DNA of 64,000 nucleotides from positions 768,001 to 832,000 of the forward strand of contig OY970173.1 of assembly GCA_963707635.1 (NCBI GenBank), read 5' to 3'. How positions within the stretch are numbered: the first letter of the stretch is position 1; every line of letters starts with the position of its first letter. The stretch is from Candidatus Latescibacterota bacterium. Its GTDB lineage: Bacteria; Krumholzibacteriota; Krumholzibacteriia; WVZY01; JAKEHA01. The position numbers and the translations under genes are program-made. The notes below the pieces were generated by a model, which ran no database searches, was not told the DNA's origin, and saw only the letters and a program-made list of their open reading frames with translations. Below are positions 4,646 through 50,181 of the stretch, one piece after another.

Positions 4646-4776
4646 GGACCCTCGTCCGTGATAGAATTCGCCACAGGCAACGCCCTCTCCTCCGTCATTC
4701 TCCTCCCTCTATAGATGGTCGCGGTACCCGCAGCGTGTATGCGCCTGCGGGCGGGTTCGGGCTGGGAGGTCGGGTC

Positions 4777-6376
4777 ATGCATACCACCGTATTCTCCGGC
4801 GCTATCGTCGGAATCCAAGGCCTCGTCGTCGAAGTCGAAGTGGACATCTCGCGGGGCATTCCCGCGTTCTCGGTAGTGGGATTGCCCAACGCGGCCGTCC
4901 GCGAGAGCCGCGAACGGGTGACCGCCGCCATCAAGAACACGGGCCACCACTTTCCACTAGAACGCATCACCGTCAACCTCGCCCCTGCCGACGTCAAGAA
5001 AGAGGGATCCGCGTACGATCTGGCCATCGCGGTCGGGATCCTGCTGGCGTCGGGGCAGGCGGAAGCGACGACGGAGCGCACGCTGTTCATCGGCGAGCTC
5101 GCGCTGGATGGATCGCTCCGGCGGGTGCCGGGTGTGCTGCCGATCCTCCTCCACGGGCGTGCCGCCGGCTTTCGACGCGCCGTGGTGCCGCTCGCGAACC
5201 TCGATGAAGCCCGCGTCGTCGAAGGTGTCGAAGTGATTGCTTGCGAGAACCTGCGGGTAGCGGTGGCCATGGCGCTGGCCCCCGCACCCGCGTCGGCCGG
5301 ATCCCGCCGCAACCGCGCCGCCGGCGATCCGACGGAGGCGAACTTCGACGCTACCGTCGACGGGCGAGTGATCGTGAAGCGGGCCGACGACCCCGTACCC
5401 ACTCCGCCCGCCCCGAACTCGTTCGCGCTCGACATGGCCGACGTGGTCGGGCAGGAGGCGGCCAAGCGGGCGCTTCTCATTGCCGCGGCCGGCGGCCACC
5501 ACGTGCTCATGACCGGTCCTCCGGGGGCAGGCAAGACCATGCTCGCGCGGCGATTCGCGACCATTCTGCCGCCGCTATCGTCCGCGCGATCGATGGAAAC
5601 CACGATGATCTACTCCATCGTCGGGCTTCTTCCGGGCGGGGGGCTCATGACCCTGGCCCCGTTTCGATCGCCGCACCACAGTGCCAGCGACGCGGGCCTG
5701 ATCGGCGGCGGCGGCGTGCCGCGCCCCGGCGAAGTCACCCTCGCGCACAACGGCATCCTCTTTCTCGACGAGCTGCCCGAGTTTCGCCGGCACGTGCTGG
5801 AGACGTTACGCGAGCCGCTGGAGGAGGGGCAGATCACCATTTCCCGGGCTCGCAGCGCCGTCACATTTCCGGCCCGGTTTCAACTGGTGGCGGCGATGAA
5901 CCCCTGCAACTGTGGCAGCCATGGGAGCAAGGTGAACCAATGCAGCTGTTCTCCCTCGACAAATCGAAGCGTATCTCGCAAAAATATCAGGTCCACTGCT
6001 CGATCGAATCGCGATTCACGTGGCTGTGCAACCCGTTGAGCTCGACGCGTGGGGCTCATCGTCGGTCCGGATGACAAGCGCCGCCATGCGAGAGATTGTC
6101 ATTCACGCACGCGAGATCCAGGCGACGTCGATTCGCAGAAGTGGATGGCACGGACTGTAACGCGAGGCTCCCCGAAGGCATGTTCTCGACTTCTTGTTCG
6201 ATGGAGCCGGCGGCCGAGACGCTGTTTGTGCGCGCACAGAAAGTACTCTGGTGAGCGCACGGTCGCGGGGACACATCATTCGCGTGGCGCGGACGGTCGC
6301 GGATTTGGAAGGGAGCGAACGGATCGGAGAGCGGCACGTCGCGGAAGCAGTGGGGTATCGGAGAAGACGTGCGTGA
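4777..6376 (+). CDS. comM: ComM/YifB Mg-chelatase-like AAA+ ATPase; 3' third has several frameshifts (about 5955, 6125, 6245)
   Basis: VGLPNAAVRESRERV, NLAPADVKKEGSAYDL, Walker A GPPGAGKT, Walker B LFLDELPEF, AAMNPCNCG; tail continues in shifted frames to HVAEAVGYR. Confidence 0.92.
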
Positions 6377-11401: not shown

Positions 11402-11729
11402 GCAGCGGGTCGGCAATCGACACGCTCGATATGAGCGGGCGGGGCCCTCGACCATATCGAGAGGGAGCTGCCACGGCTCCAGGGCGAGGCCGACTTCATG
11501 CGCATCCAGTCCGGGACCCGGGAGGCCGTTCTTGGCGGGGCGAGGGATCGCTTCTCCCATTAGCCCGATCTTGTGCCCGTGGGCGAAGCGGGAATCGTTT
11601 AGGCCATCGTGGTTATCGGCAAGAATGATGTTGTGATAGATCTGTGCTATTCCCCGGCGCTTCCGGAAGTTCGGTCCCGCTGATCAGAGGCCGGTTCGTT
11701 GCCCTGGAGGTATAAGCTCCCAAAGGAGT

Positions 11730-11819
11730 AAGTGATTGAATTGAAAAGGCTAAAGGCCGTCCCCGCTGCCCCTTCCTCTCCCTCCTCTAAAGAAGCAGCA
11801 AAATGGCAACGAACCCCTG
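11730..11819 (+). repeat. comM-array att arm 1
   Basis: AAGTGATTGAATTGAAAAGGCTA ... CTCTAAAGAAGCAGCAAAATGGCAACGAACCCCTG. Confidence 0.8.
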
Positions 11820-12285
11820 CAACTGTGGAATGCACGGGAGCACGATCAAGCAGTGCACGTGTTCGCCGCAGCAGATTGAGAAGTATCTTGCGAAAATCTC
11901 GGGGCCGCTTCTCGATCGGATCGCGATCCATGTGAGCGTGCGGCCGGTTGACATCGACGCTTGGAAGTCGCCGTCGAAGGCGTCGCTGACGAGTGCCACG
12001 ATGCGCGAGATGGTCGTGCGAGCACGGGAGATTCAGGCGCGACGCTTCGCCGAAATCGACGGCATCGACTGCAATGCGCGGATTCCGGAAGGAATGTTTG
12101 CATCTGACTGCGCCATGGAACCGAAGGCGGAAGCGCTGTTCGTGCGCGCGCAGAAGTCACTGCTGGTGAGCGCACGGGCGCGCGGTCACATCGTCCGCAT
12201 CGCGCGCACGATTGCGGACTTGGAGAGAAGCGAGCGAATAGCGGAGCGACACGTCGCAGAAGCAGTGGGATATCGGGGGAGGTAA
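11803..12285 (+). pseudogene. comM: comM 3' fragment copy 2 (160-aa intact ORF)
   Basis: MATNPCNCG...ISGPLLDRI...HVAEAVGYRGR, homologous to the comM C-terminus. Confidence 0.9.
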
Positions 12286-13698: not shown

Positions 13699-13789
13699 AA
13701 GCCACTGATGATGAAGAAGATGAAGCTCGCCTTCACCCGCCACGCCTCCCTCTCCCCTAAAGAAGTGGCAAAAGGGCAACGAACCCCTG
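13699..13789 (+). repeat. comM-array att arm 2
   Basis: AAGCCACTGATGATGAAGAAGATGA ... CCCCTAAAGAAGTGGCAAAAGGGCAACGAACCCCTG. Confidence 0.8.
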
Positions 13790-14255
13790 TTTGTGCGGGT
13801 TCCATGGGTCGACAGTTCGGCAATGTCGTTGCTCACCGCTTCAGATCGAAAACTATCTCGGGAAGATCTCAGGGCCGTTGCTGGATCGGATCGCGATTCA
13901 CGTCGCTGTCCGGCCAGTCGACATCGACGCGTGGAAGTCGCCGTCGTCGTCGGCAATGACGAGTGCAGCGATGCGCGAGATGGTCGCGCGAGCGCGGGAG
14001 ATTCAGACACGGCGCTTCGCCGAAACAAACGGCGTCGACTGCAACGCGCGCATCCCGGAAGGCTTGTTCGCGTCACTCTGCGCGATGGAGCCGAAGGCGG
14101 AGGCGCTGTTCGCGCGGGCGCAGAAGTCGTTGCTGGTTTCCGTGCGGGCGCGCGGCCACATCGTCCGCGTCGCGCGAACAATTGCGGACTTGGAAGGCAG
14201 CGAGCGGATCGCCGAGCGTCACGTCGCGGAGGCCGTGGGGTATCGTGGGAGGTGA
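13773..14255 (+). pseudogene. comM: comM 3' fragment copy 3 (ATG mutated to AGG)
   Basis: ATNPCLCGFHGS...ISGPLLDRI...HVAEAVGYRGR. Confidence 0.9.
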
Positions 14256-18661: not shown

Positions 18662-18749
18662 AAGCGATTGATGGCAAAGAAGATGAACGCAGCCCCGACA
18701 CGCCCTCCCCTCTCCCCTAAATCAGTGGCAAAATGGCAACGAACCCCTG
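18662..18749 (+). repeat. comM-array att arm 3
   Basis: AAGCGATTGATGGCAAAGAAGATGA ... CCCCTAAATCAGTGGCAAAATGGCAACGAACCCCTG. Confidence 0.8.
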
Positions 18750-19215
18750 CAACTGTGGAATGCACGGGAGCACGATCAAGCAGTGCACGTGTTCGCCGCA
18801 GCAGATTGAGAAGTATCTTGCGAAAATCTCGGGGCCGCTTCTCGATCGGATCGCGATCCATGTGAGCGTGCGGCCGGTTGACATCGACGCTTGGAAGTCG
18901 CCGTCGAAGGCGTCGCTGACGAGTGCCACGATGCGCGAGATGGTCGTGCGAGCACGGGAGATTCAGGCGCGACGCTTCGCCGAAATCGACGGCATCGACT
19001 GCAATGCGCGGATTCCGGAAGGAATGTTTGCATCTGACTGCGCCATGGAACCGAAGGCGGAAGCGCTGTTCGTGCGCGCGCAGAAGTCACTGCTGGTGAG
19101 CGCACGGGCGCGCGGACACATCGTGCGCGTTGCGCGAACGATCGCGGACCTCGAGGGAAGCGAGCGAATAGCGGAGCGGCATGTGGCAGAGGCGGTGGGG
19201 TATCGGGGACGATAG
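18733..19215 (+). pseudogene. comM: comM 3' fragment copy 4 (160-aa intact ORF)
   Basis: Near-identical to copy 2. Confidence 0.9.
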
Positions 19216-20849: not shown

Positions 20850-20937
20850 AAGTGATGGCCTATCAACAGGTTAACATCGCGTACCCACGGGGCGACACCT
20901 TTCCCTAAAGAAACAGCAAAATGGCAACGAACCCATG
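20850..20937 (+). repeat. comM-array att arm 4
   Basis: AAGTGATGGCCTATCAACAGGTTA ... CCCTAAAGAAACAGCAAAATGGCAACGAACCCATG. Confidence 0.8.
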
Positions 20938-21409
20938 TTTGTGTGGGTTCCATGGGTCGATGTTGCGGCAATGTCGTTGCTCGCCGCTTCAGATAGAGAA
21001 CTATCTCGGGAAGATCTCGGGGCCGCTATTGGATCGGATCGCGATTCATGTGGCGGTGAGACCGGTGGATGTCGAGGCGTGGTCTGGCTCGAGCGACACG
21101 ACGCGTCTCACGAGCGCCGCGATGCGGGAGATGGTGGCGCGGGCGCGAGAGATTCAGGCGCGACGCTTCGCCGACACGAACGGTGTCGATTGCAATGCGC
21201 GCATCACGGAAGGAATGTTCGCCACCTTCTGCGCGATGGAGCCGTCGGCGGAAACGTTGTTTGTGCGTGCGCAGAAGTCGCTCCTCGTGAGCGCGCGGGC
21301 GAGAGGTCACATCGTCCGGGTCGCGCGCACGATTGCGGACTTGGAGAGAAGCGAGCGAATAGCCGAGCGACACATCGCGGAGGCGGTTGGGTATCGTGGA
21401 AGGGCGTAA
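20921..21409 (+). pseudogene. comM: comM 3' fragment copy 5 (162-aa intact ORF)
   Basis: MATNPCLCG...HIAEAVGYRGRA. Confidence 0.9.
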
Positions 21410-23980: not shown

Positions 23981-24068
23981 AAGGGATTGGAAATGAAGAA
24001 GCTAGGGGGCAACCTGCCCCGCCCGACAATCTCCCCTAAAGAAGCAGCAAAATGGCAACGAACCCCTG
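23981..24068 (+). repeat. comM-array att arm 5
   Basis: AAGGGATTGGAAATGAAGAAGCTA ... CCCCTAAAGAAGCAGCAAAATGGCAACGAACCCCTG. Confidence 0.8.
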
Positions 24069-24546
24069 TTTGTGCGGATTCCATGGGTCGACGATTCGGC
24101 AGTGCCGTTGCTCGCCGCTTCAGATTGAGAACTACTTGGGGAAGATCTCGGGGCCGTTGCTGGATCGGATTGCGATTCACGTGAGCGTGCGGCCGGTGGA
24201 CGTGGAAGCGTGGTCGGGTGTCGATGGTGTGACGCGCATGACGAGTGCCGCGATGCGGGAGATGGTGGCGCGTGCGCGCGAGATTCAAACGCAGCGCTTC
24301 GCCGACACGAACGGCGTCGACTGCAACGCGCGCATTCCCGAAGGAATGTTTGCAGCGCACTGCGCAATGGAAGCTACCGCTGAGGCGTTGTTCGTGCGGG
24401 CGCAGAAATCGCTCCTTGTGAGTGCGCGGGCGCGCGGTCACATCGTGCGAGTCGCACGGACGATTGCAGACCTCGAGGGAACGGAGAAGATTGCGGAGCG
24501 TCACATCGCGGAGGCGATCGGGTATCGGGGGAGGGATTCACGGTAG
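24052..24546 (+). pseudogene. comM: comM 3' fragment copy 6 (164-aa intact ORF)
   Basis: MATNPCLCG...HIAEAIGYRGRDSR. Confidence 0.9.
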
Positions 24547-24591
24547 TGATCGAGCTTTCTGTCGCCGCCGCGGTCGTTCCGGGCGGTTGAC

Positions 24592-25073
24592 GTGCATCTT
24601 CCTCAAGCCTTCAACTACGCGCGGGGCAACCTCAGCTTCACCATCAACGGAAGGGAGCACTCACCATGTGGGCTCAAGCAACCCAGAAAGCACATGGATT
24701 GCGTCGTATCGGGTGCCATCGTCCTGACCCTTGGGGAGGCCTATGGCTTCCGGAGGCCCATGCGAACCCCGGCACAACGCTCGATCCGCAGAACCCGAAC
24801 GCGACGTTCACGCAGGAAGGCAGTCAAACGTTCACACTGGGGCCGGTGTTGTTGCTCACAGACCAGTCGTTGTCCGACTTCGTCGCGTTCTTCGCGCCCG
24901 ATGCGGATGCGGCTCCGGGCACGTTCTCGTCGGTCGAGTTTGGTTGCCGCAGCGTCGAGGCGCAGTCCAGCGTGGAGTACGCAGCCTTCCGTTCGAGCCT
25001 CGTCGCACCGCTGGCGGTAGAGACGACAACATGGGGTCGAATGAAAGCATTGTATAGAACGGACCGACCGTGA
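24592..25073 (+). pseudogene. 5'-truncated, frameshifted secreted protein ending TTWGRMKALY
   Basis: Two frames join near 24750; TWGxxKALY tail; no signal peptide visible. Confidence 0.6.
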
Positions 25074-31644: not shown

Positions 31645-31814
31645 GAGCCCGCTCGGGCATGCCACGCAGCGTTCATCTTGTTAGGCAGCAGGTTACGCAC
31701 TACTATCTGCAGACTGCGGGCCGAATCGACGACCCGGTCGAATTTTGTGAAGCAGCCTACGCGGTTGGATTGTGGGCGGGCAGCCGTACAAGCTCGATAG
31801 AAGACTAGTTAGCC
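31645..31814 (+). repeat. attI-like module, copy R2
   Basis: ATGCCACGCAGCG...TCTTGTTAGG...GATAGAAGACTA-GTTAGCC. Confidence 0.75.
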
Positions 31815-32411: not shown

Positions 32412-32834
32412 ATGACGCTCACCAAAGTTGTTTGCCTCGTTTATGGCCTCTTCGGCATCCTCTATGTCCTCATCGGCGTCGGGTCTATGTTGCTGCCCAC
32501 CGGTTGGCTCCCGCAAATCCTGCAAGGCGACTTGGCTCGGGAAGCGTCGAGCCCCTTCGTCGAGCACCTACTCCAAGAATTCGGCACGGTAGTTCTTGCA
32601 CTCGGCTTGGTATTTCTCTGGTACGCGCGCGGCAAGGAGCAGAATCCCGGCTTTCACTGGGCAGTGACCTGCTACTTCGCATTGGATGCCTTGATCCATT
32701 GGGTCGGCCCCGAAGGGCTGATCGGCTCTTGGTCACGGGGCATCATCAATTCCATTCCGTTTGCGCTAATGCTGTTACTCGGATTGCTTCAGTTGCGGGC
32801 GTCAAGGCGAAGAGAGGTGCCGAGTGCCGCCTAA
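32412..32834 (+). CDS. Membrane protein (about 4 TM), cassette-type; stop codon within GCCTAAC
   Basis: AGGAG RBS; hydrophobic; attC left-arm-like sequence at 32829. Confidence 0.7.
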   Translation: MTLTKVVCLVYGLFGILYVLIGVGSMLLPTGWLPQILQGDLAREASSPFVEHLLQEFGTVVLALGLVFLWYARGKEQNPGFHWAVTCYFALDALIHWVGPEGLIGSWSRGIINSIPFALMLLLGLLQLRASRRREVPSAA

Positions 32835-32892
32835 CAAACAGTTGGACGGACCGTGGAACGGTGTCGCGGGCCCACCCATCCAACCTTCATTC

Positions 32893-32941
32893 CTCCCCTA
32901 GGGAAGTAGCAAGATGGCAACGAATCCCTGTTTGTGCGGAT
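32893..32941 (+). repeat. comM-array att arm + first 9 codons of comM fragment (truncated)
   Basis: CTCCCCTAGGGAAGTAGCAAGATGGCAACGAATCCCTGTTTGTGCGGAT. Confidence 0.75.
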
Positions 32942-33029: not shown

Positions 33030-35667
33030 ATGGCCCTTTCAATCGGAACTCGCCTCGGTCCGTACGAGATCACCGCTGCCCTGGGTGCGGGCGGAATGGG
33101 AGAGGTTTATCGCGGGCGCGATACGAAGCTGAATCGCGACGTCGCGCTGAAGATCCTGCCCGAGCCGTTCGCGTCGGATCCGGAGCGCCTGGCGCGCTTC
33201 CGTCGCGAGGCACAGCTGCTCGCCTCCTTGAATCACCCGCACATCGGCGCGATCTACGGCTTCGAGGAGTCGCAAGGAGTCGGCGCGCTGGTGCTGGAAT
33301 TGGTCGAAGGCACCCACGCTCGCGGATCGGATTGCACGCGGCCCGATTCCTCTCGAAGAAGTCATTCCGATGGCGCGACAGATCACCGACGCATGCGAAG
33401 CGGCGCACGCGCAGGGCATCATTCACCGCGACCTCAAGCCGTCCAACATCAAGCTGCGCCCGGATGGCGAGATCAAAGTTCTCGACTTCGGTTTGGCCAA
33501 AGCCACGGATGCGACACCCGTCACTGGTAACGACGCGTCCCAGTCACCCACCATCACCAGTCCGTCGATGACACGAGCGGGAGTGATCCTGGGGACGGCA
33601 GCATACATGAGTCCCGAGCAAGCGAAGGGTCGCGTCGCCGACCAGCGCAGTGACATCTGGGCGTTCGGGTGCGTGTTGTTCGAGATGCTCACCGGGAATC
33701 GCGTATTCCACGGTGAGGACGTGGCGGAGACACTGGCTGCGGTATTAACGAAGGAGCCCGACTGGACCCTGCTCCCGTCGGATACGCCACTGTCAATCCG
33801 GCGCGTTCTTCGTCGCTGCCTGGCGAGAGACCGGAAACGACGGCTCGCCGACATGGCGGACGTTGGAATCGAGCTCGATGATAGCGTGACCGGAGGCGCG
33901 GAACCCGGAGCGCTTTCTACGTCGCCACATCGATGGATTCCGTGGTCGATCGCGGGCGTGTCTGCCGCCATCGCGCTTTGGCTCGCGGTAAGCACGGTCT
34001 TCGATCGACCGGCCCGCGATACGCGCGTGGTTCGCAGTTCGATTCTGCTTCCGAGTGGGCTGGGAGTGCGCTCGGGCGGCACATCGGGTGCTACCCTCGC
34101 GCTTTCGGCCGACGGCCGGCGCCTGGCGTTCGTCGGCATGGACACGACTGGACACCGCCAGTTGTGGATGCGCACGCTCGACGGTTCCTCGCCCCGGCCA
34201 CTCGCCGACACCGAGGGCGCAAACTCGCCATTCTGGTCGCCCGACGGTCGATGGCTTGCGTTCGTCGCGGACGGGAAACTCAAGAAACTCGATCCATCAG
34301 GGGGTCAGGCCATCACATTGTGCGAGTCGGCCCAGAGTGGTGGTGCCTGGAATCGTGACGACATCATCCTCTTCACGCAGATCAATGGGCCGTTGGCCCA
34401 GGTCCGAGCATCGGGCGGCGCCCCATCGACCGTTACCACGCTTGCAGCCGAAGACTTTCGGCACGCGCATCCGATCTTCTTACCTGACGGCGACCATTTC
34501 GGGTACGTCGCGTTCGGACTCGGGTTTGAGGTGGCCGTCTGCGTCGCCTCGCTGACGTCAAGCGAGCGAACGCAGTTACCCCTGGACGCCGTCTTCGTAC
34601 AGTATGCGCAAGGCTTCCTGCTGTTCGCACAAGGAAGCACGCTCATGGCCCAACGGTTCGACGAGCGGCGCAATGCGCTTGTCGGCGCGGCCGTGCCCGT
34701 TGCGGAGCAACTTCGGGTCGACTATGGCTCGAGAAGCAGACACTTCAGCGTATCAGCCACGGGCGTGCTCGTGTTCCAGGAAGATCCGTCCCCGGGATTC
34801 GATCTCGTTTGGTACGACCGTCAGGGGAGACCAGTTGGGACACTCGGAACCGCGGCCGACTACTCGGATGTGTCGCTCTCGCCCGACGGACGAAGGTTGT
34901 TGGTCTCAATCGCGGAGCCGGGTACGACGAACCGCGATCTGTGGATGTTCGACGTGGCGCGGGATCTCCGTACTCGCTTCACGGTCAGTCCCGAGCAGGA
35001 GACGCACAATATCTGGTCGCCCGACGGCAAACGGATCGCGTACGACTCCTTGCGAAAAGGGCATCGTGACATGTTTCTAAAGGCCTCCGACGGTTCCGGA
35101 GACGAGGAGGTCTTGCTCGAGACCGAGTTCGATGAGAACCCCATGGACTGGTCTCCCGACGGCCGGCTCATCTCATACATCAGGCGAAGTGCCCAAACCG
35201 TGAATATCTGGATGTTGCCACTCGATGGTGATCGGAAACCCTTCCCATTCCGGGAATCATCTTTCTTCGAAATCGGAGGAAGGTTTTCGCGTGACGGGCG
35301 CTGGGTGCTCTACGTCTCGACCGAATCAGGCAGGAGTGAGGTCTACGTCTCGCGGTTTTCTAGGCCGGGTGAGAAGCTGCAAGTCTCGGCGACCGGCGGC
35401 ACCGACGCAAGGTGGGGTCCTGCTGGGAAGGAGATCTTCTACTTGTCGCTCGACGGCAAACTGATGGTTGCCACCGTGTCGACGGACGGCGATCAGTTTC
35501 GTGTCGGCGAGGTGAAGCCAATGTTCGAGCTGCAGAAGATCGGGCCGCGATTCACCTATGATATCTCGCCTGACGGTCAGCGCTTTATTGCCGTGACGCG
35601 GAAATGGGAGTCTGTCTCCGCTCCGCTCGTGCTCGTGGACAACTGGCCGGAACTCCTGGAGCAATGA
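33030..35667 (+). CDS. Ser/Thr protein kinase with TM and TolB/PD40 beta-propeller; +1 frameshift near 33312
   Basis: LGAGGMGEVY, VALK, HRDLKPSN, DFG, YMSPEQ; WSPDG repeats. Confidence 0.9.
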
Positions 35668-35744
35668 TCCAGGCACAAAGCGCATGGCACTGGCTTTGAA
35701 GCAGAGGACTCGTGACGAAGGCTGTGAAGGCCGCGCCCTCTCGC

Positions 35745-35834
35745 TTCCCTAAAGAACCAGCAGAAAGGCAACGAACTGTTGTAGTTGGGCTGCGGGCGGG
35801 CAGCAGATCAGAATCGATAGAAGACTAGTTAGGC
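35745..35834 (+). repeat. comM att arm fused to attI-like module R3
   Basis: CCCTAAAGAACCAGCAGAAAGGCAACGAAC-TGTT-GTAGTTGGGCTGCGGGC...GATAGAAGACTA-GTTAGGC. Confidence 0.75.
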
Positions 35835-35864
35835 GTCGGGAACCGGCAATCACGGACTATCTAT

Positions 35865-36281
35865 ATGGCCGAAAACAAGACCAAGCCCACCGACGCTAGC
35901 GTCGAGGACTACATCGCCTCAAGAGCCAACGCGCAGCAATGCACCGACTGCCGGGAGTTGATGGTTCTGCTCAAGAAAGTCACCCGGCACTCACCAAAAA
36001 TGTGGGGACCCAGCATCGTCGGTTATGGCTCCTACCGGTACACCTACGAGAGTGGACGAACTGGGGAATCCCCTTTGGCGGGCTTTGCCATCCGTGGCCG
36101 AGAACTGGTGGTCTACCTGTTGGCTGAAGGAGAGGAGCAAAAATCCTTGCTGTCCAAGCTTGGCAAGCACAAGATGAGCAAGGTTTGCCTGTACTTCAAG
36201 CAGCTTGCTGATCTTGATAGGTCGACGCTCGAAAAGCTTGTCGTCGGTTCGGTCGCGCAGGTAAGGCGGCGCTACGGGTAG
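35865..36281 (+). CDS. DUF1801 (YdhG-like) protein, integron gene cassette
   Basis: MAENKTKPT...MWGPSIVGYGSY...CLYFKQLADLD; bounded by GTTAGGC and attC. Confidence 0.88.
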   Translation: MAENKTKPTDASVEDYIASRANAQQCTDCRELMVLLKKVTRHSPKMWGPSIVGYGSYRYTYESGRTGESPLAGFAIRGRELVVYLLAEGEEQKSLLSKLGKHKMSKVCLYFKQLADLDRSTLEKLVVGSVAQVRRRYG

Positions 36282-36290
36282 AACGATGGC

Positions 36291-36350
36291 TCCTAACAAG
36301 TCATTCAAGCCGACGCCGCGTCGCGGCGCGGCTTAATTCAGGCGTTGGGC
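36291..36350 (+). other. Integron attC site (60 bp)
   Basis: TCCTAAC AAGTCATTCAAGCCGACGCCGCGTCGCGGCGCGGCTTAATTCAGGC GTTGGGC: inverse core, imperfect palindrome, core. Confidence 0.92.
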
Positions 36351-36460: not shown

Positions 36461-37220
36461 ACACACGCCGTCCAACTACAGCATGCAGCGGTACTGGAGG
36501 AGACCATGACCTATCCCCGGTGGGGTTGTAACCGCCATCGCGAGAGCCGCGCGACGCGGCGCCTCTTCATCCGATCTTAGTCGGCGGCGCGCTCGTCCCG
36601 TGGGTTACTGGCGCCTGCGTGAAGCTTTACCGCGACGCGCACGCAGCACGTGGACGTGGCCCTGGTCGGCGTTCCTCGGTCCGGGAAGGCTCGGACTTGG
36701 GCTCTTCTTAGCAGCCATTTCGGCGCTCCCCATGCAGCGTTCGCGAGCATCGCGCGGGACCATTCCCACGGGAAGCCTCCATTCCTCGGCAGTGTAGACA
36801 TGCGGAGGCGGCGGGCGGTGGTAAGTTGCAGTCTGGTTGGCGGGTGGATAGTATCGGCACGGTTCTTCTGGTCCCTGTTTTGGGATTTCCAAGAGATGTC
36901 GCTGGTCGCCGGCGCGCCGTTTCTAATTTTCTACGTTGGGATGGCATGATTGCGGGGTGAGACGCGCCGGGATGGCGGTGTGCACCCACGTTGTTTTCGC
37001 CCGGCGGCGCCACGATTGATGCCGCGGCGGGGTCACCGGGAGTTGCTGCCTAACGGGGCGAAGCCAGGGACAAAGCTTGGTTGGCGGGCACTGCATGTCC
37101 CCCTGCCCGGCAAGCGGCAGGCCGTACAATCTAATGGAGCCGATCGAAACTGGCCGCCTCATGGGGCCGAGGCTCCCGACGGCTACCGAGCGATCAACGA
37201 GCACGACCAGTCGCCCAGAA

Positions 37221-37707
37221 TTACTTCATCGCGTTTACGTGCTCCACGAACTGATCGACGGCGATCTCGGCGCCCAGGTAGAAGCCCAATGCCTTGTTCG
37301 TTTCGAGGTCCTCGTCATTGCGGTGCAGCGCCGTGAAGACGTAGTGAGTGCAGTCTCGCGGTTACCATAGTCACGATGGCAGTGATCGAGATGTCGTTAA
37401 AGACAGCCGGGCGATAGCCGGGGAACAACATCGAGATCCAGACCAGTTACTTTCATGGGAATAACGTCCAGGAAACAGCCGAGGTTGGGAATCCTGCACG
37501 TCTCCCTGTGGCCATGTCGATGCTGAAGATGCCGCCCGGTCGCACGTCCATTTCGGCTCGCGACACACGCCCCCCGGGCTTAGGCATATACCACTCCTTG
37601 AGATGCTCCGGTTTCGTCAACGCTTCCCAGACGAGCCGCTTGGGAGCGTCGATCAACCGTTGAATGGCGGAATCAAGTTTCGGATCGATCGTGAATTGCT
37701 TGTTCAT
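37221..37707 (-). pseudogene. SRPBCC/AHSA1 domain protein, frameshifted
   Basis: RLIDAPKRLVWEALTKPEHLKEW...MDVRPGG; reading frame broken. Confidence 0.7.
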
Positions 37708-38064
37708 GATTTTGATTCCTTCTCCTTGAGTTGTTTGACGTATTGGTCGAACCGGTCCAGTCGCGCTTCCCACAACTGACGACGCGCGGTCAGCCAGTCT
37801 TCAACGACCTTGCAACCGTCCGGGTGCGATCTCATACGTCCGCACCCGCCCGCGCTTTTTCGACCGCACCAGTCGGCTCTGTTCGAGCACCGAGAGGTGC
37901 TGCACGAACGATGGAAGTTGCATGTCGAACGGCGCCGCCAGTTCGGTGACGGTGGCTGGTCCGACAGACAGTCGCTCCAAAACTTTCCGCCGAGTCGGGT
38001 TGGCCAAGGCGTAAAACACGTCGTCAGCGGCTGAAGGATTGAACCATTTCCGATACCATCCCAT
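37704..38064 (-). pseudogene. ArsR-family regulator, frameshifted
   Basis: VFYALANPTRRKVL...QHLSVLEQSRLVRSKKRGR, then WEARLDRF in another frame. Confidence 0.75.
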
Positions 38065-38283
38065 GCCTGTGTTTCTGATCTGACCGGGGAAGTATAGAGC
38101 CATAGAATACTTCTGTCAATACCTAAGTATTGTCTTGAAGCGCCAACCTTCGCACGGAGACAAGAAGTCCGGCGAAGGCGGTTGCCCTTACATCGACTCG
38201 ACTGCGCGCGTGTGGCGAGCGTTCGATCTGCGCCAACGAACGCTGAAGCTGACGAACGATTTTCGGAATTGCGCGCGGCTGGT

Positions 38284-38427
38284 TTTGCGACGCACTTGCT
38301 GGAGTCCGGCACGGACATCCGGACGATCCAGGCACTGCTGGGGCACCGGGACGTGACGACGACGATGATCTACACGCACGTTCTGAACAAGGGCGGGCTC
38401 GGCGTGAAGAGCCCGTTGGACCGGTGA
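38284..38427 (+). pseudogene. intI: Integron integrase C-terminal remnant
   Basis: [47 protein letters not shown]: box II His, catalytic Tyr and IntI-type C-terminus. Confidence 0.88.
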
Positions 38428-38588
38428 TGTTGAATGCCACGCAGCGCTTATCTTGTTAGGCAGCAGGTTACGCAGTACAATCTACAGACTGCGCGCCGAA
38501 TCGACAACCCGGTCGAATGTAATGACGCAGCCTACGTAGTTGGGCTGCGGGCGGGCGGTAAACAAGATCGATAGAAGACTAGTTGGAC
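38428..38588 (+). repeat. attI-like module, copy R4, directly downstream of intI stop
   Basis: TCTTGTTAGGCAGCAGG...GTAGTTGGGCTGCGGG...GATAGAAGACTA-GTTGGAC. Confidence 0.75.
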
Positions 38589-43055: not shown

Positions 43056-43305
43056 GATATACCACGGAGCACGGCTTCACAGTACCCTGTCCCGAAGTCG
43101 GAGGCAAGCGACGGGCGGGAACGGGACCCTCACAGAATGTCGGACCACCGTGGCGATGCGGCAAACGCCGCGTGAATGAGGCCAACGTGGGAATACGCCT
43201 GCGGAAAGTTGCCCCACATGCGGGGGCTCAATTCGAGCGGGTGGTCGTGAATGTGGAATCCCGCCGGACTCCGCCATGCAGCCGTTGCGCCATGCGCCGC
43301 TAACG

Positions 43306-43339
43306 AATCGCCCCGCCCGATACGTCGGGCGGGGCGATT
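43306..43339. terminator. Strong hairpin downstream of the di-heme gene
   Basis: AATCGCCCCGCCCGA-TACG-TCGGGCGGGGCGATT perfect 15-bp stem. Confidence 0.7.
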
Positions 43340-43367
43340 TCGTTCAATGATCGCCCTGGAGGGCGAA

Positions 43368-44683
43368 CTACAGTGACTCGAGGAACGCCATCAGGGCCCT
43401 GCGGTCGCGAGAACCGAGCCTCGCGAAGTTCTTGCGGGCGTTACTCCCCTGACCATCATGCGCGAGGATCGCCGTTTCGGGCGTCGTCGCACGACCGTCG
43501 TGGAGGAACGTTGGCCGCGCCATCAGACCCCAGAGGGGCGCGGTCCGCATCTCACGAGCCCGGGCAGCGCCCTGGACAATGCCATCGCCCAGCTTGCCCA
43601 TGTCGTGCAGCAGGAAGTCCGAGTACGGGTGGAAGGTCTTGTTCGACAATGCCTGTACCGGACTGAGTCCCGTCTGGTGGGTAGGCGTATGACAGTGGGC
43701 GCAACCGGCGTTCTGGAACACCCTTTCGCCGGCCGCGGTCTGGCTGTTCGTGGGGCCCCGCGGAGGTGGGCCGAGGAAGGTCATGAAGTCCGTGAACAGA
43801 TCCACCCCTTCGCCGTCGTCGTTCAGGGCCGGTGCCGGGTTGAACTTCAACGCATCCGCGTCCCCCTGAGGCAGGTTCTCGTTCGGGAACTCCGGATTCG
43901 TGATTCCCATCTCGTTCAGGTAGGCGTCGCCGGAGAACTGGAACAACGTGGGGACCTGCGCTTTCCATCCGAAACGGCCGACGCGCATCGCGCCGGTGCG
44001 AATCTCCTTCACCATGTGGACCCTGCCCCGCGTGTCGCGGGGCTGGCGATTGGCCAGCGCCGTCAGCGCCTCGTCGGGGATGGCGTCCACCAATCCAAGA
44101 CCGAAGAGCGACGTGGTGTTTCGGAGAGCGGTCTGGTTCGCTCGTCGCGGCACGATCTCGGGTACGAACGTGAAGAACCCGGAGGATCGCCGGCCGGATC
44201 TCGATCGGTGCGGACCTTGCCGATCGCCTGATCCTGCATGAGCGAGCCGCCGAACCGGTCGAGGGGATCGAACTTCCCCTGCTCCCACTTGCCGAACCGG
44301 GTCTCGAGCCGCCCGTTGGTACCGCCGATGGGGGCATCGTGGCAATCGACGCACCCGGCCTCGTTGAATACCGGACCCAGCCCGTCCTCGACGGTCTCGA
44401 TCTCCTGGAAGTCCTCTCGGCCTGCCTCGAAACGCGCGAGCTCTTCCGGAGTCAGCCCCGCGATCGGCCCTCCCAGAGTCGTGGCCATCGCGGGACCGCC
44501 GGGGTCAGTGGAGTTGGACAACAGATCCGTCTCGCGCGTCGGCGGCGTCAGCGGCGCGGTGCTGTCCCGCTCACACCCGGCGAGTGCGATCATCGCCAGC
44601 AGGGCAAGCGCGCCGCGGGCGGTCAGGCGCGTGGACGGTGAACAGAGCACACCCTGTCTTCTGAACTGCGTTGGTGGATACAC
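43368..44683 (-). CDS. Di-heme oxidoreductase (DHOR)-family lipoprotein, frameshift near 44190-44215
   Basis: Lipobox LAGC; GLGPVFN, CVDCH and CAHCH; GRFGWKA; RTAPLWG; LHDGRA. Confidence 0.85.
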
Positions 44684-44704
44684 CGGGGCACCTCCTTGGT
44701 GCGG

Positions 44705-44829
44705 AAGAAATGCACAAAGTTCGCCCGGGCGGCTTGACTCAAAGACGCGAAGTTCGCCCGGTGGGGGCCAAAGAAATCAACGAAGAGCGCCCGGAGGGAG
44801 CTTGAAGAAATCCACGAAGTTCGCCCCGG
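44705..44829. repeat. Four ~33-bp-spaced direct repeats (consensus AAGAAATnCACGAAGTTCGCCCGG)
   Basis: AAGTTCGCCCGG-like core at 44717, 44750, 44783, 44817. Confidence 0.75.
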
Positions 44830-44936
44830 GAAGGGGTCTACCGGAAAGGGGCCTAGAGGTTGCCACAGTGGTTGTCACGCGTCAAGTAGAATGTCGTCAC
44901 CGTGCAAGCAGATCTGGCGCCAGGATGCGTTGTGAT

Positions 44937-44993
44937 GCAGCGAGCGTCTGACGGAGCGTCACATCGCGGAAGCAGTGGGTATCGGGGGCGTGA
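44937..44993 (+). pseudogene. comM: comM extreme 3' remnant
   Basis: AGCGAGCGTCTGACGGAGCGTCACATCGCGGAAGCAGTGGGTATCGGGG = SERLTERHIAEAVG(Y)RG. Confidence 0.75.
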
Positions 44994-45017
44994 AACAAGG
45001 TTGTCGTCACGACGGAT

Positions 45018-46688
45018 CTACCGCACGAGCAGGAGCTTCCTCGAGCGCTCGAGCGTCTGGCCCCCCAGTCCCACGGCGCGCAAGCGGCAGAAATAGAGCC
45101 CGGATGGCGCTGGAGTTCCGGCGTCGTCGAAGCCGTTCCAAACCGCGTTGTGCACTCCGGCCCCCTCATCCCGGCGCACCAGCGTGCGCACCCGATGCCC
45201 GGCGACATCGTAGACATCGATCTCCACGCTCGCCGCTTGAGGGAGACTGTACGAGAGCTGTGTGTTGGCCGCGAACGGATTCGGCGCGTTCTGTGCGAGC
45301 GCATGATCGACCACTGGGGTCGGCTCGGTGACGGCGGTCGGTGCGCTCCATGGAATGCAGAATCGCGCGACCGCGCCGTTCGGGGACGGGACCATCAGAC
45401 GATCGACGCTGGTCGCACCGGCGCTGCTCAGGTCAACGCTCGGATCCCACGCCGCGGCGGTCCCGACGGGTGCCGGCGACTCAGGCGTCCCACCGGCGAT
45501 GTCAATCTGCTGGACATACCCATCATCCCGTCCGACGTAGGCCTTGTTGAGTCCAGGCGCCACCGCGGGTGGGGTGACGAACGAGTTCCCACCCCCGGCG
45601 TTGACCGGCGGCCAGAGTGGAACGCCTGCAGTGCTGCCGTCCTGCACGCCGTGGAGTACTCCGGACGTGTCTACAAAGAACACCCGAGTGGGCAAGGGGG
45701 ATCGAAACTCGACCCACGGGCTGCGCAGGAGTGGCGCGCTGCTCGCGTAGGTCCATAGGAGCACTCCATTCCCAAAGCCGTCGCCATCTGGAGCCCACTT
45801 CTGGAGCGTACCGTCGATCGAGGCTGCGTACAACTCACCCGCACCGAACTGCGGCCGGCTCAGAATGGAGCCCGCATTGGCCGCCCACGCTGGCGCGCCG
45901 TTCAGGCTGCCAATCGCCCACAGGGTGGGCAGGCCAGGCGCGACCTGATCTTGATTCGTTCCGCAGTACAGACGATTGGAAGCGTAGTCGATGGCGCAGC
46001 TTTCGCTGCCGTAGTCCATCGAATAGCTGCCGGTATTATTGAATGTCCACTTGAGCGAGAGGTCGGACGCGTAGTAGGCCCGGATCCGATTCTTGGTGGA
46101 GCCCAAGTAGCAGCCGTCTGAGGGCACAGCCGAGTTGCCATTGTGCGTCATGACGAACACGAGATCATCCGGATGGCCGCGCAGCGTCATGATCGTGCTT
46201 TGGAACGTGGAGTTCGACGCCGCGTAGAGCTGCACCGCTGGCGTCGCGGTGATACGATCCGCCGTGCAGACGGCACGTCTGGTGTCCACACTCTTCGCCG
46301 TCAGGCCGGTTGCGACGTCTATTTTGTAGAGGAAGCCGTCGCTCCCTCCGACGAACAGGTACTCGAGGCCGTTGCTGAGCAAGACCGGCGAAGGAAAGTT
46401 CTCGATGGTGGTACCTGCCGACCACGTCCAGGCGACAGCTCCGCCGGTATGGACGGGCGGACCAGCGCCGGTCTCGTTCCACACCGCGTAGACCGTGGGG
46501 CCGTAGGCAAAGAAACTGAGCCCGGCGCCGAAGGGCGTGTCGGAGGCGACCTGCGTGATGGTGCTCGGAAGCTGCTCCGGAAGCTGCCATAGCGGAGCGG
46601 GCGGGCATGTTTGCGCGGCCGAGATTCCGGATGACGCTACGCCGGCAGCGATGGTGACCCAGACGAGGCGCGCACACGTTCGTCTCAT
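45018..46688 (-). CDS. Secreted PQQ-like beta-propeller protein with FlgD-Ig/secretion tail
   Basis: Signal peptide; propeller repeats; QNAPNPF...RKLLLVR. Confidence 0.82.
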   Translation of the reverse strand: MRRTCARLVWVTIAAGVASSGISAAQTCPPAPLWQLPEQLPSTITQVASDTPFGAGLSFFAYGPTVYAVWNETGAGPPVHTGGAVAWTWSAGTTIENFPSPVLLSNGLEYLFVGGSDGFLYKIDVATGLTAKSVDTRRAVCTADRITATPAVQLYAASNSTFQSTIMTLRGHPDDLVFVMTHNGNSAVPSDGCYLGSTKNRIRAYYASDLSLKWTFNNTGSYSMDYGSESCAIDYASNRLYCGTNQDQVAPGLPTLWAIGSLNGAPAWAANAGSILSRPQFGAGELYAASIDGTLQKWAPDGDGFGNGVLLWTYASSAPLLRSPWVEFRSPLPTRVFFVDTSGVLHGVQDGSTAGVPLWPPVNAGGGNSFVTPPAVAPGLNKAYVGRDDGYVQQIDIAGGTPESPAPVGTAAAWDPSVDLSSAGATSVDRLMVPSPNGAVARFCIPWSAPTAVTEPTPVVDHALAQNAPNPFAANTQLSYSLPQAASVEIDVYDVAGHRVRTLVRRDEGAGVHNAVWNGFDDAGTPAPSGLYFCRLRAVGLGGQTLERSRKLLLVR

Positions 46689-46761
46689 TGCCGTCCTCCA
46701 AGGGGATATTGTCACGCTGATGGTAACCATCCGTCGAGAACGACTCAACAACAATTCTGAC

Positions 46762-46992
46762 AACGACGATGATCTACACCCACGTTCTGAACAAGGGCCG
46801 GCTTGGAGTGAAGAGCCCGCTGGACCGGTGACAACGAATGCGTCGCAGCGCATATCTTGTTAGGCTACGAGTTGCGCTGTACTATTTGCAGGCCGCGAGC
46901 CGAAGGGAAGGCAAGGTCTGGCGTTATGATTGAGCCTATGTGGTTGGACTGCGGACGGGCAGCGTACAGGATCAATAGCAGACTAGTTGGGG
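46762..46992 (+). repeat. intI 3' tail + attI-like module, copy R5
   Basis: [22 protein letters not shown], same spacer, ends AATAGCAGACTA-GTTGGGG. Confidence 0.75.
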
Positions 46993-47001
46993 GAGGACAT
47001 T

Positions 47002-47451
47002 ATGATTGAAGCGCAGAGAACGACGACTCCGGGGAGACCGTGGCATTTGTGGTTGATCGGGATTGTCGGAGGCCTGTGGAGTTCGATCGGTGTGCTGTCC
47101 TTCATGCTCACTCAGATGAACGTCGAAGCTGTCATGAGCCGGTTTCCTCCGCAGCAGCGCGAGTACTTCGAATCGTTTCCGCTGTGGGCCGTCGCGTTCT
47201 GGGCGATCGGCGTGTTCGGTGGCGTGTTCGGGTGCCTTCTGTTGCTTCTGAAGAACCGCCTCGCGTATCATGTCTTGCTCGCCTCAGTGATCGGAGCGAT
47301 CGTTTACAATCTCGGCGGCTTGTTTCTTCTTGGCGGGATGAAGGTGATGCGCGAAACGGGTGGGTTGGGTCTCACCGTACTCCCCATTATCTTTGCCGCA
47401 TTCCTGGCGTATTACGCTCGTGCGATGAGCAAGAAGGGTGTGCCCAGCTAG
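47002..47451 (+). CDS. Membrane protein (sugar-transporter-like small family), cassette-type
   Basis: PWHLWLIG...PLWAVAFWAIGVFGG; GGAGG RBS. Confidence 0.75.
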   Translation: MIEAQRTTTPGRPWHLWLIGIVGGLWSSIGVLSFMLTQMNVEAVMSRFPPQQREYFESFPLWAVAFWAIGVFGGVFGCLLLLLKNRLAYHVLLASVIGAIVYNLGGLFLLGGMKVMRETGGLGLTVLPIIFAAFLAYYARAMSKKGVPS

Positions 47452-47500
47452 CCTCGCTACGACGACAGAACGCATCTTGGTTCACTACACGCCTACGAAA

Positions 47501-47986
47501 ATGAAGAGTATGAAAATGCACAAACCAGTCTTTACCGAAACGATGCAGATCGGGATCGTGGTGCGCGACCTCGATGCGACGATGCGAAGATACGTTGATA
47601 ACTACGGGATCGGTCCGTGGCAGGTCCATCAGTTCAAGCGTGAAGACGTCAAAGAGTGGTTTGAGCATGGCCAGCCGCTTGAGCCCTCGACGCGCATCGC
47701 TACCGCTATGGTTGGCCACATGCAATGGGAGCTGATCCAGCCGCTCGACGATAAGAGCATCTTTGCGCGGTTCCTTGCTGAGAAGGGAGAAGGCGTGCAT
47801 CATATCGCCGTCGCTACGATGAACTTCGACGAGACGCTCGAGGCGGAGGCGAAGCGAGGGAACGATTTGGTCCTTAGCTGCGAGTTGAGCGGCAAGTTCA
47901 GCGGCATAAAGGTCGCTTACCTCGGCACCCAGAGCGATCTTGGAGTGATCCTCGAGATCTTCAACGATCTGCCCAAAGGCAAATAG
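47501..47986 (+). CDS. VOC family (methylmalonyl-CoA epimerase-like) protein
   Basis: QIGIVVRDLD, ELIQP, GEGVHHIA. Confidence 0.85.
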   Translation: MKSMKMHKPVFTETMQIGIVVRDLDATMRRYVDNYGIGPWQVHQFKREDVKEWFEHGQPLEPSTRIATAMVGHMQWELIQPLDDKSIFARFLAEKGEGVHHIAVATMNFDETLEAEAKRGNDLVLSCELSGKFSGIKVAYLGTQSDLGVILEIFNDLPKGK

Positions 47987-48077
47987 AAGCTTGCCGCGAG
48001 CTGTTCAGCGGACGTCGTCTAATTCGCGTGCGTCAGCCTGGCGAGGAGTTGTGGCTGCCGGCGCGTTGCGGGTACGC

Positions 48078-49617: not shown

Positions 49618-49665
49618 CATCCGGGGCTGCAGGGCCACAGGAGGCTCATGCCAGGCGGACGATGG

Positions 49666-49731
49666 TCTTGTTGGGCTGCGGGTGGCGCAGTACAATCTGC
49701 AGTCTGCGGGCGGCCCGGTCCGTCGTTAGGC
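49666..49731 (+). repeat. Partial attI-like module, copy R6
   Basis: TCTTGTTGGGCTGCGGGTGGCGCAGTACAATCTGCAG...GTTAGGC. Confidence 0.6.
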
Positions 49732-49779
49732 TGCAGCGTTTGAGCGCAATCCGCCAGGTTGCAGACAACAAGGAGACGC

Positions 49780-50181
49780 ATGCCACTACTCGTCGGAGCA
49801 TTACTGGCACTTGCAGTCGGGTTGTTCGCCTCGGGCGTCGGCCTGGACCGGGAACGGGGCTTCTATCCGACAGTCACCATCGTCATCGCGTTGTACTATG
49901 CTTTGTTTGCGGTCATGGGCGCATCCACTCAGACGCTTGTACTCGAGTCCCTGGTCGCCACTGCATTCCTTTCAGCCGCGGCGCTGGGCTTCAGATCGTC
50001 ACTTTGGCTGGTTGTGGGAGCACTTGCGGCGCATGGCATTTTCGATCTCATCCATGGTCGAGTCATCAGCAATCCGGGAGTTCCAGTTTGGTGGCCCCAT
50101 TTCTGCCTCACGTACGACGTTGCGGCAGCTGGGTATCTCGCGTGGTTGCTCAAGCGCGGACGCCTTCGTTCGGCAACCTGA
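49780..50181 (+). CDS. Membrane protein
   Basis: AGGAG RBS; 4-5 TM; HGIFD...WWPHFCLTYD. Confidence 0.75.
   Translation: MPLLVGALLALAVGLFASGVGLDRERGFYPTVTIVIALYYALFAVMGASTQTLVLESLVATAFLSAAALGFRSSLWLVVGALAAHGIFDLIHGRVISNPGVPVWWPHFCLTYDVAAAGYLAWLLKRGRLRSAT

What the first reader, a model, noticed from the sequence alone, without database searches (positions are those of the whole stretch)
35745..36350. comM att arm fused directly to an attI module and a complete gene cassette links the two systems
Seen in sequence: CCCTAAAGAACCAGCAGAAAGGCAACGAAC-TGTT runs straight into the distal part of the attI-like repeat, then GTTAGGC, the DUF1801 gene and a canonical attC. At 32829-32941 a truncated attC arm is followed about 60 bp later by another comM arm. 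At 44937-46992 a comM tail, one cargo gene and an intI tail lie in series. Inference: older comM units carried integrons as cargo and were then eroded by deletion. More speculatively, the integron integrase itself could be the trans-acting enzyme, since the comM core reads GTT on the bottom strand (GGGGTTC).
Basis: partly seen in the sequence, partly recalled or inferred. Interest (0 to 1): 0.72.

Follow-up and report, generated by a model that had tools for sequence, protein, structure and literature searches.

The report
Serine-recombinase scar joined to integron relic
The "comM arm" matches the cut end of a serine-recombinase gene that targets the competence gene comM, and the integron piece fused to it is likely a passenger that entered behind a spare comM tail and was then shortened by deletion, so the two systems are neighbours and likely do not share an enzyme.

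Summary
In detail: arm (35744-35779), distal attI, DUF1801 cassette and canonical attC are as described. The link is not a one-off. In relatives, one comM tail allele is followed within 330 bp by an intI promoter stub, intI remnant or attI in 9 of 12 cases. No intact comM-intI-attI unit was found.

The crossover centres on a TG inside a 16-bp inverted repeat. The AAC is missing in 5 of 23 arm junctions. The arm encodes the last codons of a large serine recombinase (LSR). An LSR remnant lies at 11447-11671, and a full LSR abuts comM at the same TG in a class relative.

The locus is a ~97-kb accretion island of attR scars behind a comM made whole again, with an inverted-type integron as eroded cargo. 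How units re-enter is inferred (homologous recombination, possibly LSR in trans). LSR targeting of comM is published, and this scan noted such scars before on other DNA. The repeated integron passenger was not found in the papers searched.

The parts
35744..35779 (+). att arm: element-side (P) half of an LSR attR; reads as the last LSR codons (..FPKEPAERQR)
   Evidence: 0.3% of random 12-codon stretches score as high; 13-14 of 16 identical to the inverted P' half in L148 and L179
35780..35830 (+). distal part of the attI module, up to the G|TT crossover; the Pc-like promoter part is missing
35829..36344 (+). complete gene cassette
   Evidence: R'' matches the cassette's own start
35865..36281 (+). 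DUF1801 gene
36291..36350 (+). canonical 60-bp attC
4735..6376 (+). full-length comM (frameshift near 5960); target TG at 5905-5906 in the M-N-P-C codons
11447..11671 (+). remnant of a large serine recombinase gene (residues ~407-484, one stop inside), 110 bp before the first arm
   Evidence: (E 2.6e-10 genome-wide)
11782..12285 (+). arm + comM 3' copy 1
13752..14255 (+). arm + comM 3' copy 2
18712..19215 (+). arm + comM 3' copy 3; 100% identical to copy 1 over the first ~360 alignment columns, then 82-85%
20900..21409 (+). arm + comM 3' copy 4; the unit behind it stands first behind comM in G012
24031..24546 (+). arm + comM 3' copy 5, the tail allele that is followed by integron parts in relatives
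24585..24598 (+). stub of the likely intI promoter (-35 part only)
   Evidence: compared with L100 and L043
30266..30488 (+). intI 3' tail + attI module
31659..31812 (+). attI module without intI tail
32829..32941 (+). left half of an attC, then arm + about 12 nt of comM after the TG
38284..38586 (+). longest intI tail (46 codons, 83% to a full IntI) + attI module with Pc-like TTGTTA-17-TACAAT at 38453-38481
44952..45001 (+). comM tail remnant
46758..46990 (+). intI tail + attI module
49648..49737 (+). proximal (promoter) part of an attI module

Best explanation
The arm is the element-side half of an attachment site of a comM-targeting large serine recombinase (LSR), and the attI-cassette piece is likely the remains of an inverted-type integron that travelled behind one comM tail allele and was joined to the arm by a likely internal deletion.

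Step 1 (shown in relatives). An LSR element cuts comM at the TG of the first Cys codon of N-P-C-x-C-G. Its site is a 16-bp inverted repeat around a 10-bp centre with the TG in the middle. The LSR gene ends in one half; an XRE-HTH module starts in the other.

Step 2 (shown). In this genus only arm + comM 3' junctions (attR type) pile up behind a whole comM. Each unit reads comM 3' copy, cargo, arm.

Step 3 (inferred). Units re-enter mostly by homologous recombination through the ~480-bp comM copies, sometimes by an LSR supplied from outside.

Step 4 (reconstructed from overlapping remnants). One unit type began comM tail, intI promoter, intI, Pc, attI, cassettes.

Step 5 (inferred). Deletions removed intI again and again while Pc and attI were often kept. 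At 35776-35780 the deletion likely took the comM copy, intI and Pc.

No full IntI or LSR was found in this genome, so the piece is likely inert unless an enzyme arrives from outside.
For: LSR link. A profile of the HTH that starts at the P' half hit 41 longer proteins; 27 of them carry both Resolvase and Recombinase domains. 13 of these LSRs show the Q-R/H-x-x-x-x-A-L-P-F/C att motif at the fusion point. One hit is a comM 5'-HTH fusion (P0073). G044:C59 has a full LSR (61% to P0039) ending in the arm motif and joined to comM 5' at the TG. G008:C254 shows comM 5'-TG-P'-HTH. G577 shows the same motif on a split comM. An LSR remnant lies in the window. All 7 arms translate like LSR C-termini (null fraction 0-0.4%).

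Centre. TG is present in 25 of 25 arm-side junctions. Three non-comM junctions are inverted repeats about that TG. A published LSR attB has the same M-N-P-C site (PMC10083194, supplement file 3 row 431).

Integron as cargo. 9 of 12 versus 1 of 21. L096 is a whole unit holding attI. G014 has the integron behind its full comM and none behind its distal copy. G020, another genus, has about 4 kb between comM and the distal flank, with no integron part in those regions.

Erosion. intI breakpoints fall at positions 826-1003 of the reference. Deletions soon after the core are seen at 32941 and in L107.

Homologous recombination. comM copies are mosaic, shared units stand in a different order in G012, and contig L096 is looped with a 123-bp terminal repeat inside comM.
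Against: No intact comM + full intI + attI unit was found. The one near-complete intI of the genus (G009:C205) sits at another locus. intI-tail + attI modules also occur away from comM (G008:C7, G016:C201, G002:C41), so some modules in the window may not have come with comM units.

No full LSR of this family was found in the 17 genomes of the genus. G044's LSR has CA at the centre and the opposite orientation, so the exact enzyme of these arms is not in hand.

The four bases before the TG at the finding (CTGT) match neither comM (CCCC) nor attI (CCTA), and an attI TG falls exactly in register.

The 9/12 count is among kin. It includes two near-identical loci (L096, L098) and missed some ends, among them L095, which has another tail allele followed by attI.
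Confidence: 0.78

Rival explanations
1. The join at 35776-35781 was made by the LSR itself, which used a TG inside attI as a secondary target, instead of by deletion.
For: The attI TG lies exactly 4 bases after the arm half-site, the register of all 25 junctions; TG makes up 5% of genome positions. Arms do land at non-comM sites in L030, L103 and L143.
Against: The attI right half scores below all 24 known right halves, and about 12% of random TG sites score as well. The 4-base left spacer CTGT differs from the other 24 (CCCC, TCCC, CCCA, ACCC). The join sits at the centre of an 8-bp palindrome of the attI module; that palindromes favour deletion ends is recalled knowledge.
Confidence: 0.12
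2. The integron is an old fixed neighbour of comM in this genus, and the arms only mark insertions in front of it; it never moved as unit cargo.
For: A full-length comM is directly followed by integron parts in G014, G009 and G015.
Against: The same allele stands both first and internally, up to three times in one contig (L100). In G014 the distal comM copy has no integron. G002, G003, G004, G013 and five genomes of other genera have none within 330 bp of the comM ends scored or in the loci read. G000 holds six diverged modules.
Confidence: 0.07
3. IntI acts in trans on the comM core through its GTT triplet and builds the array.
For: The bottom strand of the core reads GTT. The two systems are physically linked. 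AAC is present in 18 of 23 arm junctions.
Against: AAC is absent at that position in 5 of 23 junctions while TG is present in all 23. The site is an inverted repeat about TG with a 10-bp centre, unlike the 5-6-bp spacers of the attC here. The join at 35780 is about 48 bp from attI's G|TT and keeps attI bases on both sides of the nearer GTT. The arm is the end of an LSR gene. No full intI was found in this genome.
Confidence: 0.02
4. The join is an assembly error in a long-read genome.
For: comM (near 5960) and the kinase gene (near 33315) carry frameshifts that may be sequencing errors. No read-level check of the join was obtained.
Against: Both partners are ordinary parts of this island, and similar comM-to-attI shortenings occur in independent short-read assemblies.
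Confidence: 0.03

Closest known systems
LSR elements that target Mg-chelatase/comM genes (Durrant et al. 2022, PMC10083194: passages read and supplements searched; phage sr1WO, PMC9203015: passages read)
   Same: Same target gene family (12.4% of predicted site-specific LSRs in that survey). One listed attB has the same M-N-P-C stretch. Symmetric site with a two-base centre.
   Different: Those elements split comM and carry their LSR. Here comM is whole, only attR-type scars repeat (7 arms), and the LSR survives as one 225-bp remnant. The arm motifs were not found in that paper's 8 supplements.
Inverted-integrase integrons and CALINs (Cury et al. 2016, PMC4889954: passages read)
   Same: [quoted passage not shown]
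   Different: The repeated element here is the intI tail + Pc + attI module (six copies), not attC, and it rides behind a comM tail. That paper found intI pseudogenes near only 15 of 279 CALINs.
Tandem islands that restore their target gene with a replacement tail (ssrA islands of Dehalococcoides, PMC3146451: search listing and start of abstract only; e14/phage 21 in icd: recalled)
   Same: Whole gene first, displaced 3' copies behind each unit, integrase-less older units.
   Different: Those are recalled as tyrosine-integrase systems with shorter duplications. Here the duplication is about 480 bp and the site is of LSR type.

Membership tests
comM-targeting LSR element | LSR gene (Resolvase + Recombinase domains) next to the att site | tested here: not met
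   Only a 225-bp remnant in this genome; PF00239 and PF07508 give no match in G000. Met in the class relative G044. So a scar of such an element, not an intact member.
comM-targeting LSR element | Inverted-repeat att halves about a fixed central dinucleotide | tested here: met
   Arm versus P' 13-15 of 16 identical; TG in 25 of 25 junctions
comM-targeting LSR element | attL and attR flank the element and split comM | tested here: not met
   No P' half behind comM 5' in G000; attL seen in G008; a split comM seen in G577
comM-targeting LSR element | Recombination by the LSR | not testable with these tools
   needs an assay
Integron (inverted-integrase type) | Full-length intI | tested here: not met
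   Only 3' tails; best TIGR02249 score in G000 is 85 bits against a cut-off of 265
Integron (inverted-integrase type) | attI: conserved up to G|TT, variable after it, beside intI | tested here: met
   Alignment of 16 modules; the same module follows the near-complete intI of G009:C205
Integron (inverted-integrase type) | Cassette with attC (R''/L''/L'/R', bottom-strand hairpin) | tested here: met
Integron (inverted-integrase type) | Pc promoter upstream of attI | tested here: inconclusive
   Consensus match at 38453-38481, conserved across modules, absent from the finding's own module; activity untested
CALIN | At least two attC sites without intI | tested here: inconclusive
   One whole attC and several left halves seen by eye and by a simple pattern; no attC covariance model was run
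IntI secondary site | Crossover at a conserved G|TT (AAC) triplet | tested here: not met
   AAC absent in 5 of 23 junctions; symmetry centre is TG
Tyrosine-integrase island with replacement tail | Dedicated tyrosine integrase beside the att site | tested here: not met
   G000 has only two XerC/XerD-like genes far away plus the intI tail; no tyrosine recombinase other than intI tails beside the arms of the metagenome loci

The most novel reading that the evidence does not exclude
The comM locus of this genus is a self-feeding gene-capture platform with two tiers. LSR scars seed ~480-bp comM repeats. Recombinase-free units [comM tail, cargo, arm] excise as circles and re-enter, either by RecA/ComM-driven recombination or by an outside LSR that accepts attR x attB, a pairing serine integrases are held not to make. 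One circulating unit carries an inverted integron whose Pc-attI head is kept as a second repeat and expression module, so cassette arrays are stacked and reshuffled without IntI while comM stays whole.
Probability: 0.25. Interest if true: 0.65.

Novelty: new variant of a known kind. Interest (0 to 1): 0.38.

Why it matters
It settles which enzyme family made these comM arms and shows that a GTT triplet next to an integron is not evidence for IntI. The wider locus suggests how a gene that mobile elements often knock out (comM; PMC12378983 and PMC11472951, passages read) can be made whole again and turn into a ~97-kb landing zone. It also offers a route by which integron heads spread and multiply without their integrase. 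If units really re-enter by attR x attB, that would bear on the directionality rule of serine integrases and can be tested directly. The junction itself is a relic.

Tried and rejected
No Rfam match in the window.

My first genome-wide attC scanner missed the known attC and was dropped. The two truncated attC halves folded no better than shuffles.

The arm was not found in viral contigs. The HTH was not found in viral contigs or plasmids; phages gave only generic HTH hits. Three of 7 genome hits and 2 of 14 metagenome hits of the arm pattern were chance matches with no comM or dyad behind them.

XerCD/dif was considered and rejected because the site lacks the inner TTA/TAA of dif (recalled consensus). 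An IHF-like word about 75 bp before many arms first suggested a tyrosine integrase; this was dropped once the LSR link appeared. The CCCTAAA in the arm resembles the attI1 left box (recalled), but no right box follows and the word is explained as LSR codons. A single site-specific cut inside intI was rejected because the breakpoints scatter. The other LSRs in the genus and family (G005, G018, G021:C101, G022) are about 25% identical and not beside comM in the loci read.

The run search listed 14 DNA runs with shares of 0.05-0.06 and no RNA holder. No read-level check of the join was obtained, so an assembly slip in the four spacer bases stays open.

Paper searches for comM with integron terms, with tandem/island terms and with serine recombinase listed no paper describing this arrangement. 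The library lacks most subscription papers, and only one paper's supplements were searched.

Full report
Observation. The arm at 35744-35775 is followed by four bases and then by the distal attI, GTTAGGC at 35828, a DUF1801 gene and a 60-bp attC. The cassette is genuine: its R'' matches its own first bases better than the next R'. The arm has 7 copies in the genome, all in this window, and occurs in 6 of 208 genomes of the class, all in one genus, with no hit for the control pattern. Record titles place the genus in Candidatus Krumholzibacteriia/Latescibacteria. The two side claims (32829-32941 and 44937-46992) also hold.

Setting. A full comM (4735-6376) is followed by five arm + comM 3' copies, two arms with little or no comM, and two comM scraps. 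Synteny with G012, G014 and G020 puts the distal flank near window position 103,000, so about 97 kb has accreted; in G020 the gap is about 4 kb. Positions 64,000-106,000 hold no further arm, attI, comM or intI hit apart from one 18-nt match. The genome is 96% complete in one contig. It has two XerC/XerD-like genes, no serine recombinase domain and no full intI.

The integron part. Six copies of a ~160-bp module occur, three behind intI 3' tails. The module lies directly after the stop codon of a near-complete intI in G009. It is conserved up to a GTT and varies after it, and it holds a sigma-70-like promoter match. It is therefore read as Pc + attI of an inverted-type integron, an arrangement described in PMC4889954 (passages read). 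The finding's copy keeps attI and has lost the promoter part.

The link to comM recurs. G014 has comM, an intI remnant and attI; G009 and G006 have comM tail and attI. Among metagenome loci, L100 has arm, comM tail, promoter stub, intI tail and attI. L105 has arm, comM tail, intI tail and attI. L096 is a whole unit with attI. L107 joins 42 comM codons to a mid-intI fragment. Of 33 comM ends scored, 9 of 12 with one tail allele have an integron part within 330 bp, against 1 of 21 others; that one is a 23-nt match I judge spurious. The caveats are real. Kin are not independent, L096 and L098 are nearly the same element, one of the 21 is doubtful, and the script missed some ends, including L095, which has another allele followed by attI. 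The promoter stub resembles the promoter before intI in G007 and also stands at 24585 in the window. An ancestral unit comM tail - promoter - intI - Pc - attI is thus reconstructed, not observed. The left ends of the intI remnants scatter over about 180 bp, which fits deletion. Such modules also occur away from comM.

Where the crossover lies. In 23 arm junctions the TG three bases after AAC is constant, while AAC is replaced in five; a wider count gives TG in 25 of 25. Three arms are joined to non-comM DNA that reads as an inverted half-site about this TG. Two of them carry cargo related to units 1 and 3 of this window. A looser search found the other half of the site. In G002:C46 and G008:C254 an inverted copy of the arm (13-15 of 16 identical) leads into an XRE-HTH module, and in G008 it follows comM 5' at the TG. 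The element site is thus a 16-bp inverted repeat around a 10-bp centre with TG in the middle, a serine-integrase geometry (established knowledge).

The enzyme. A profile of that HTH hit 41 longer proteins, 27 of them with Resolvase and Recombinase domains. In 13 the LSR runs through the att motif into the HTH, and one protein is comM 5' fused to the HTH. All seven arms translate like these LSR ends. The window holds an LSR remnant 110 bp before the first arm. G044 has a full LSR whose end is joined to comM 5' at the same TG, in the opposite orientation and with CA on the LSR strand. LSR targeting of this gene family is published, and one listed attB has the same M-N-P-C stretch (PMC10083194). 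No full LSR of this family was found in the 17 genomes of the genus. IntI as the enzyme is rejected.

How the array grows (inferred). Canonical LSR integration splits comM, as in G008. Here comM is whole and only attR-type junctions repeat. Copies 1 and 3 are identical for ~360 columns and then diverge. G012's full comM resembles copy 4 more in its second half and shares its cargo. L096 assembles as a loop closed inside comM. These point to homologous recombination through the comM repeats, by circles or by transforming DNA. The non-comM junctions, one of them in a looped contig that also holds a comM scrap, suggest that an LSR sometimes acts on such units. Loops in short-read assemblies can also be tandem repeats, so circles are not shown.

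This junction. The simplest reading is a deletion from just after the arm to the middle of the attI module; deletions soon after the core also occur at 32941 and in L107. An attI TG lies in exact register, so an LSR mis-join was tested. The right half scores below all 24 known right halves, and about 12% of random TG sites do as well; the mis-join is kept as a minor rival. The join is not at attI's own crossover, so IntI did not make it.

Novelty. Each part is known: comM-targeting LSRs, inverted integrons without integrase, and tandem islands with replacement tails. The combination, a long attR-scar array with a repeatedly eroded integron head as cargo, was not found in the paper searches. 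Earlier notes of this scan describe comM-LSR scars and the LSR-HTH split on other DNA (read after searches had given the result); they are unchecked AI notes and not independent support. Verdict: real, explained, a new variant of known kinds, moderate interest.

Noticed in passing
P0039-P0075; L179; L190: The att site lies inside an LSR-HTH fusion reading frame, so integration would cut the XRE-HTH tail off the recombinase. This could act as a switch for directionality or expression; whether the fused forms are excised circles was not checked.
   Followed up: partly
L030 (G002:C54, whole contig): 8.9-kb contig with an exact 127-bp terminal repeat, holding heme-exporter-like host genes (ccmC/ccmD by recalled likeness), a comM scrap, cargo and an arm joined to a perfect 12-bp inverted repeat about TG: a possible circle or tandem amplification at a secondary site.
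   Followed up: partly
L148/L170 (G002:C46:1-2900): attP-like intact dyad followed by the HTH, an ATPase/STAS-like pair and a nucleotidyltransferase that looks CBASS-like by eye: a possible defence island of the same element family; no family scan was run on these genes.
   Followed up: no
window 11695-11704: A P'-like half-site directly after the LSR remnant and about 80 bp before the first arm; perhaps an older, decayed attP.
   Followed up: partly
window, about 60-85 bp upstream of most arms (e.g. 11731-11745): Conserved AAGTGATTGA-type word resembling an IHF site (recalled consensus); function unknown.
   Followed up: no
window 37209-38135, 43298-44907, 46853-47987, 49795-50163 versus G012:C2: The same gene blocks (81-94% identical, one 72%) occur in G012 in another order, with a switch point at an attI module; the modules may serve as recombination repeats.
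   Followed up: partly
window near 5960 and near 33315: Frameshifts in comM and in the kinase-PD40 gene; real or sequencing error could not be told.
   Followed up: no
L037, L038, L040, L043, L067, L130, L132: intI reduced to a 3' tail with Pc and attI kept in other genomes of the genus, at least three of them (L037, L038, L040) beside core genes far from comM; repeated loss of IntI with retention of the promoter head.
   Followed up: partly
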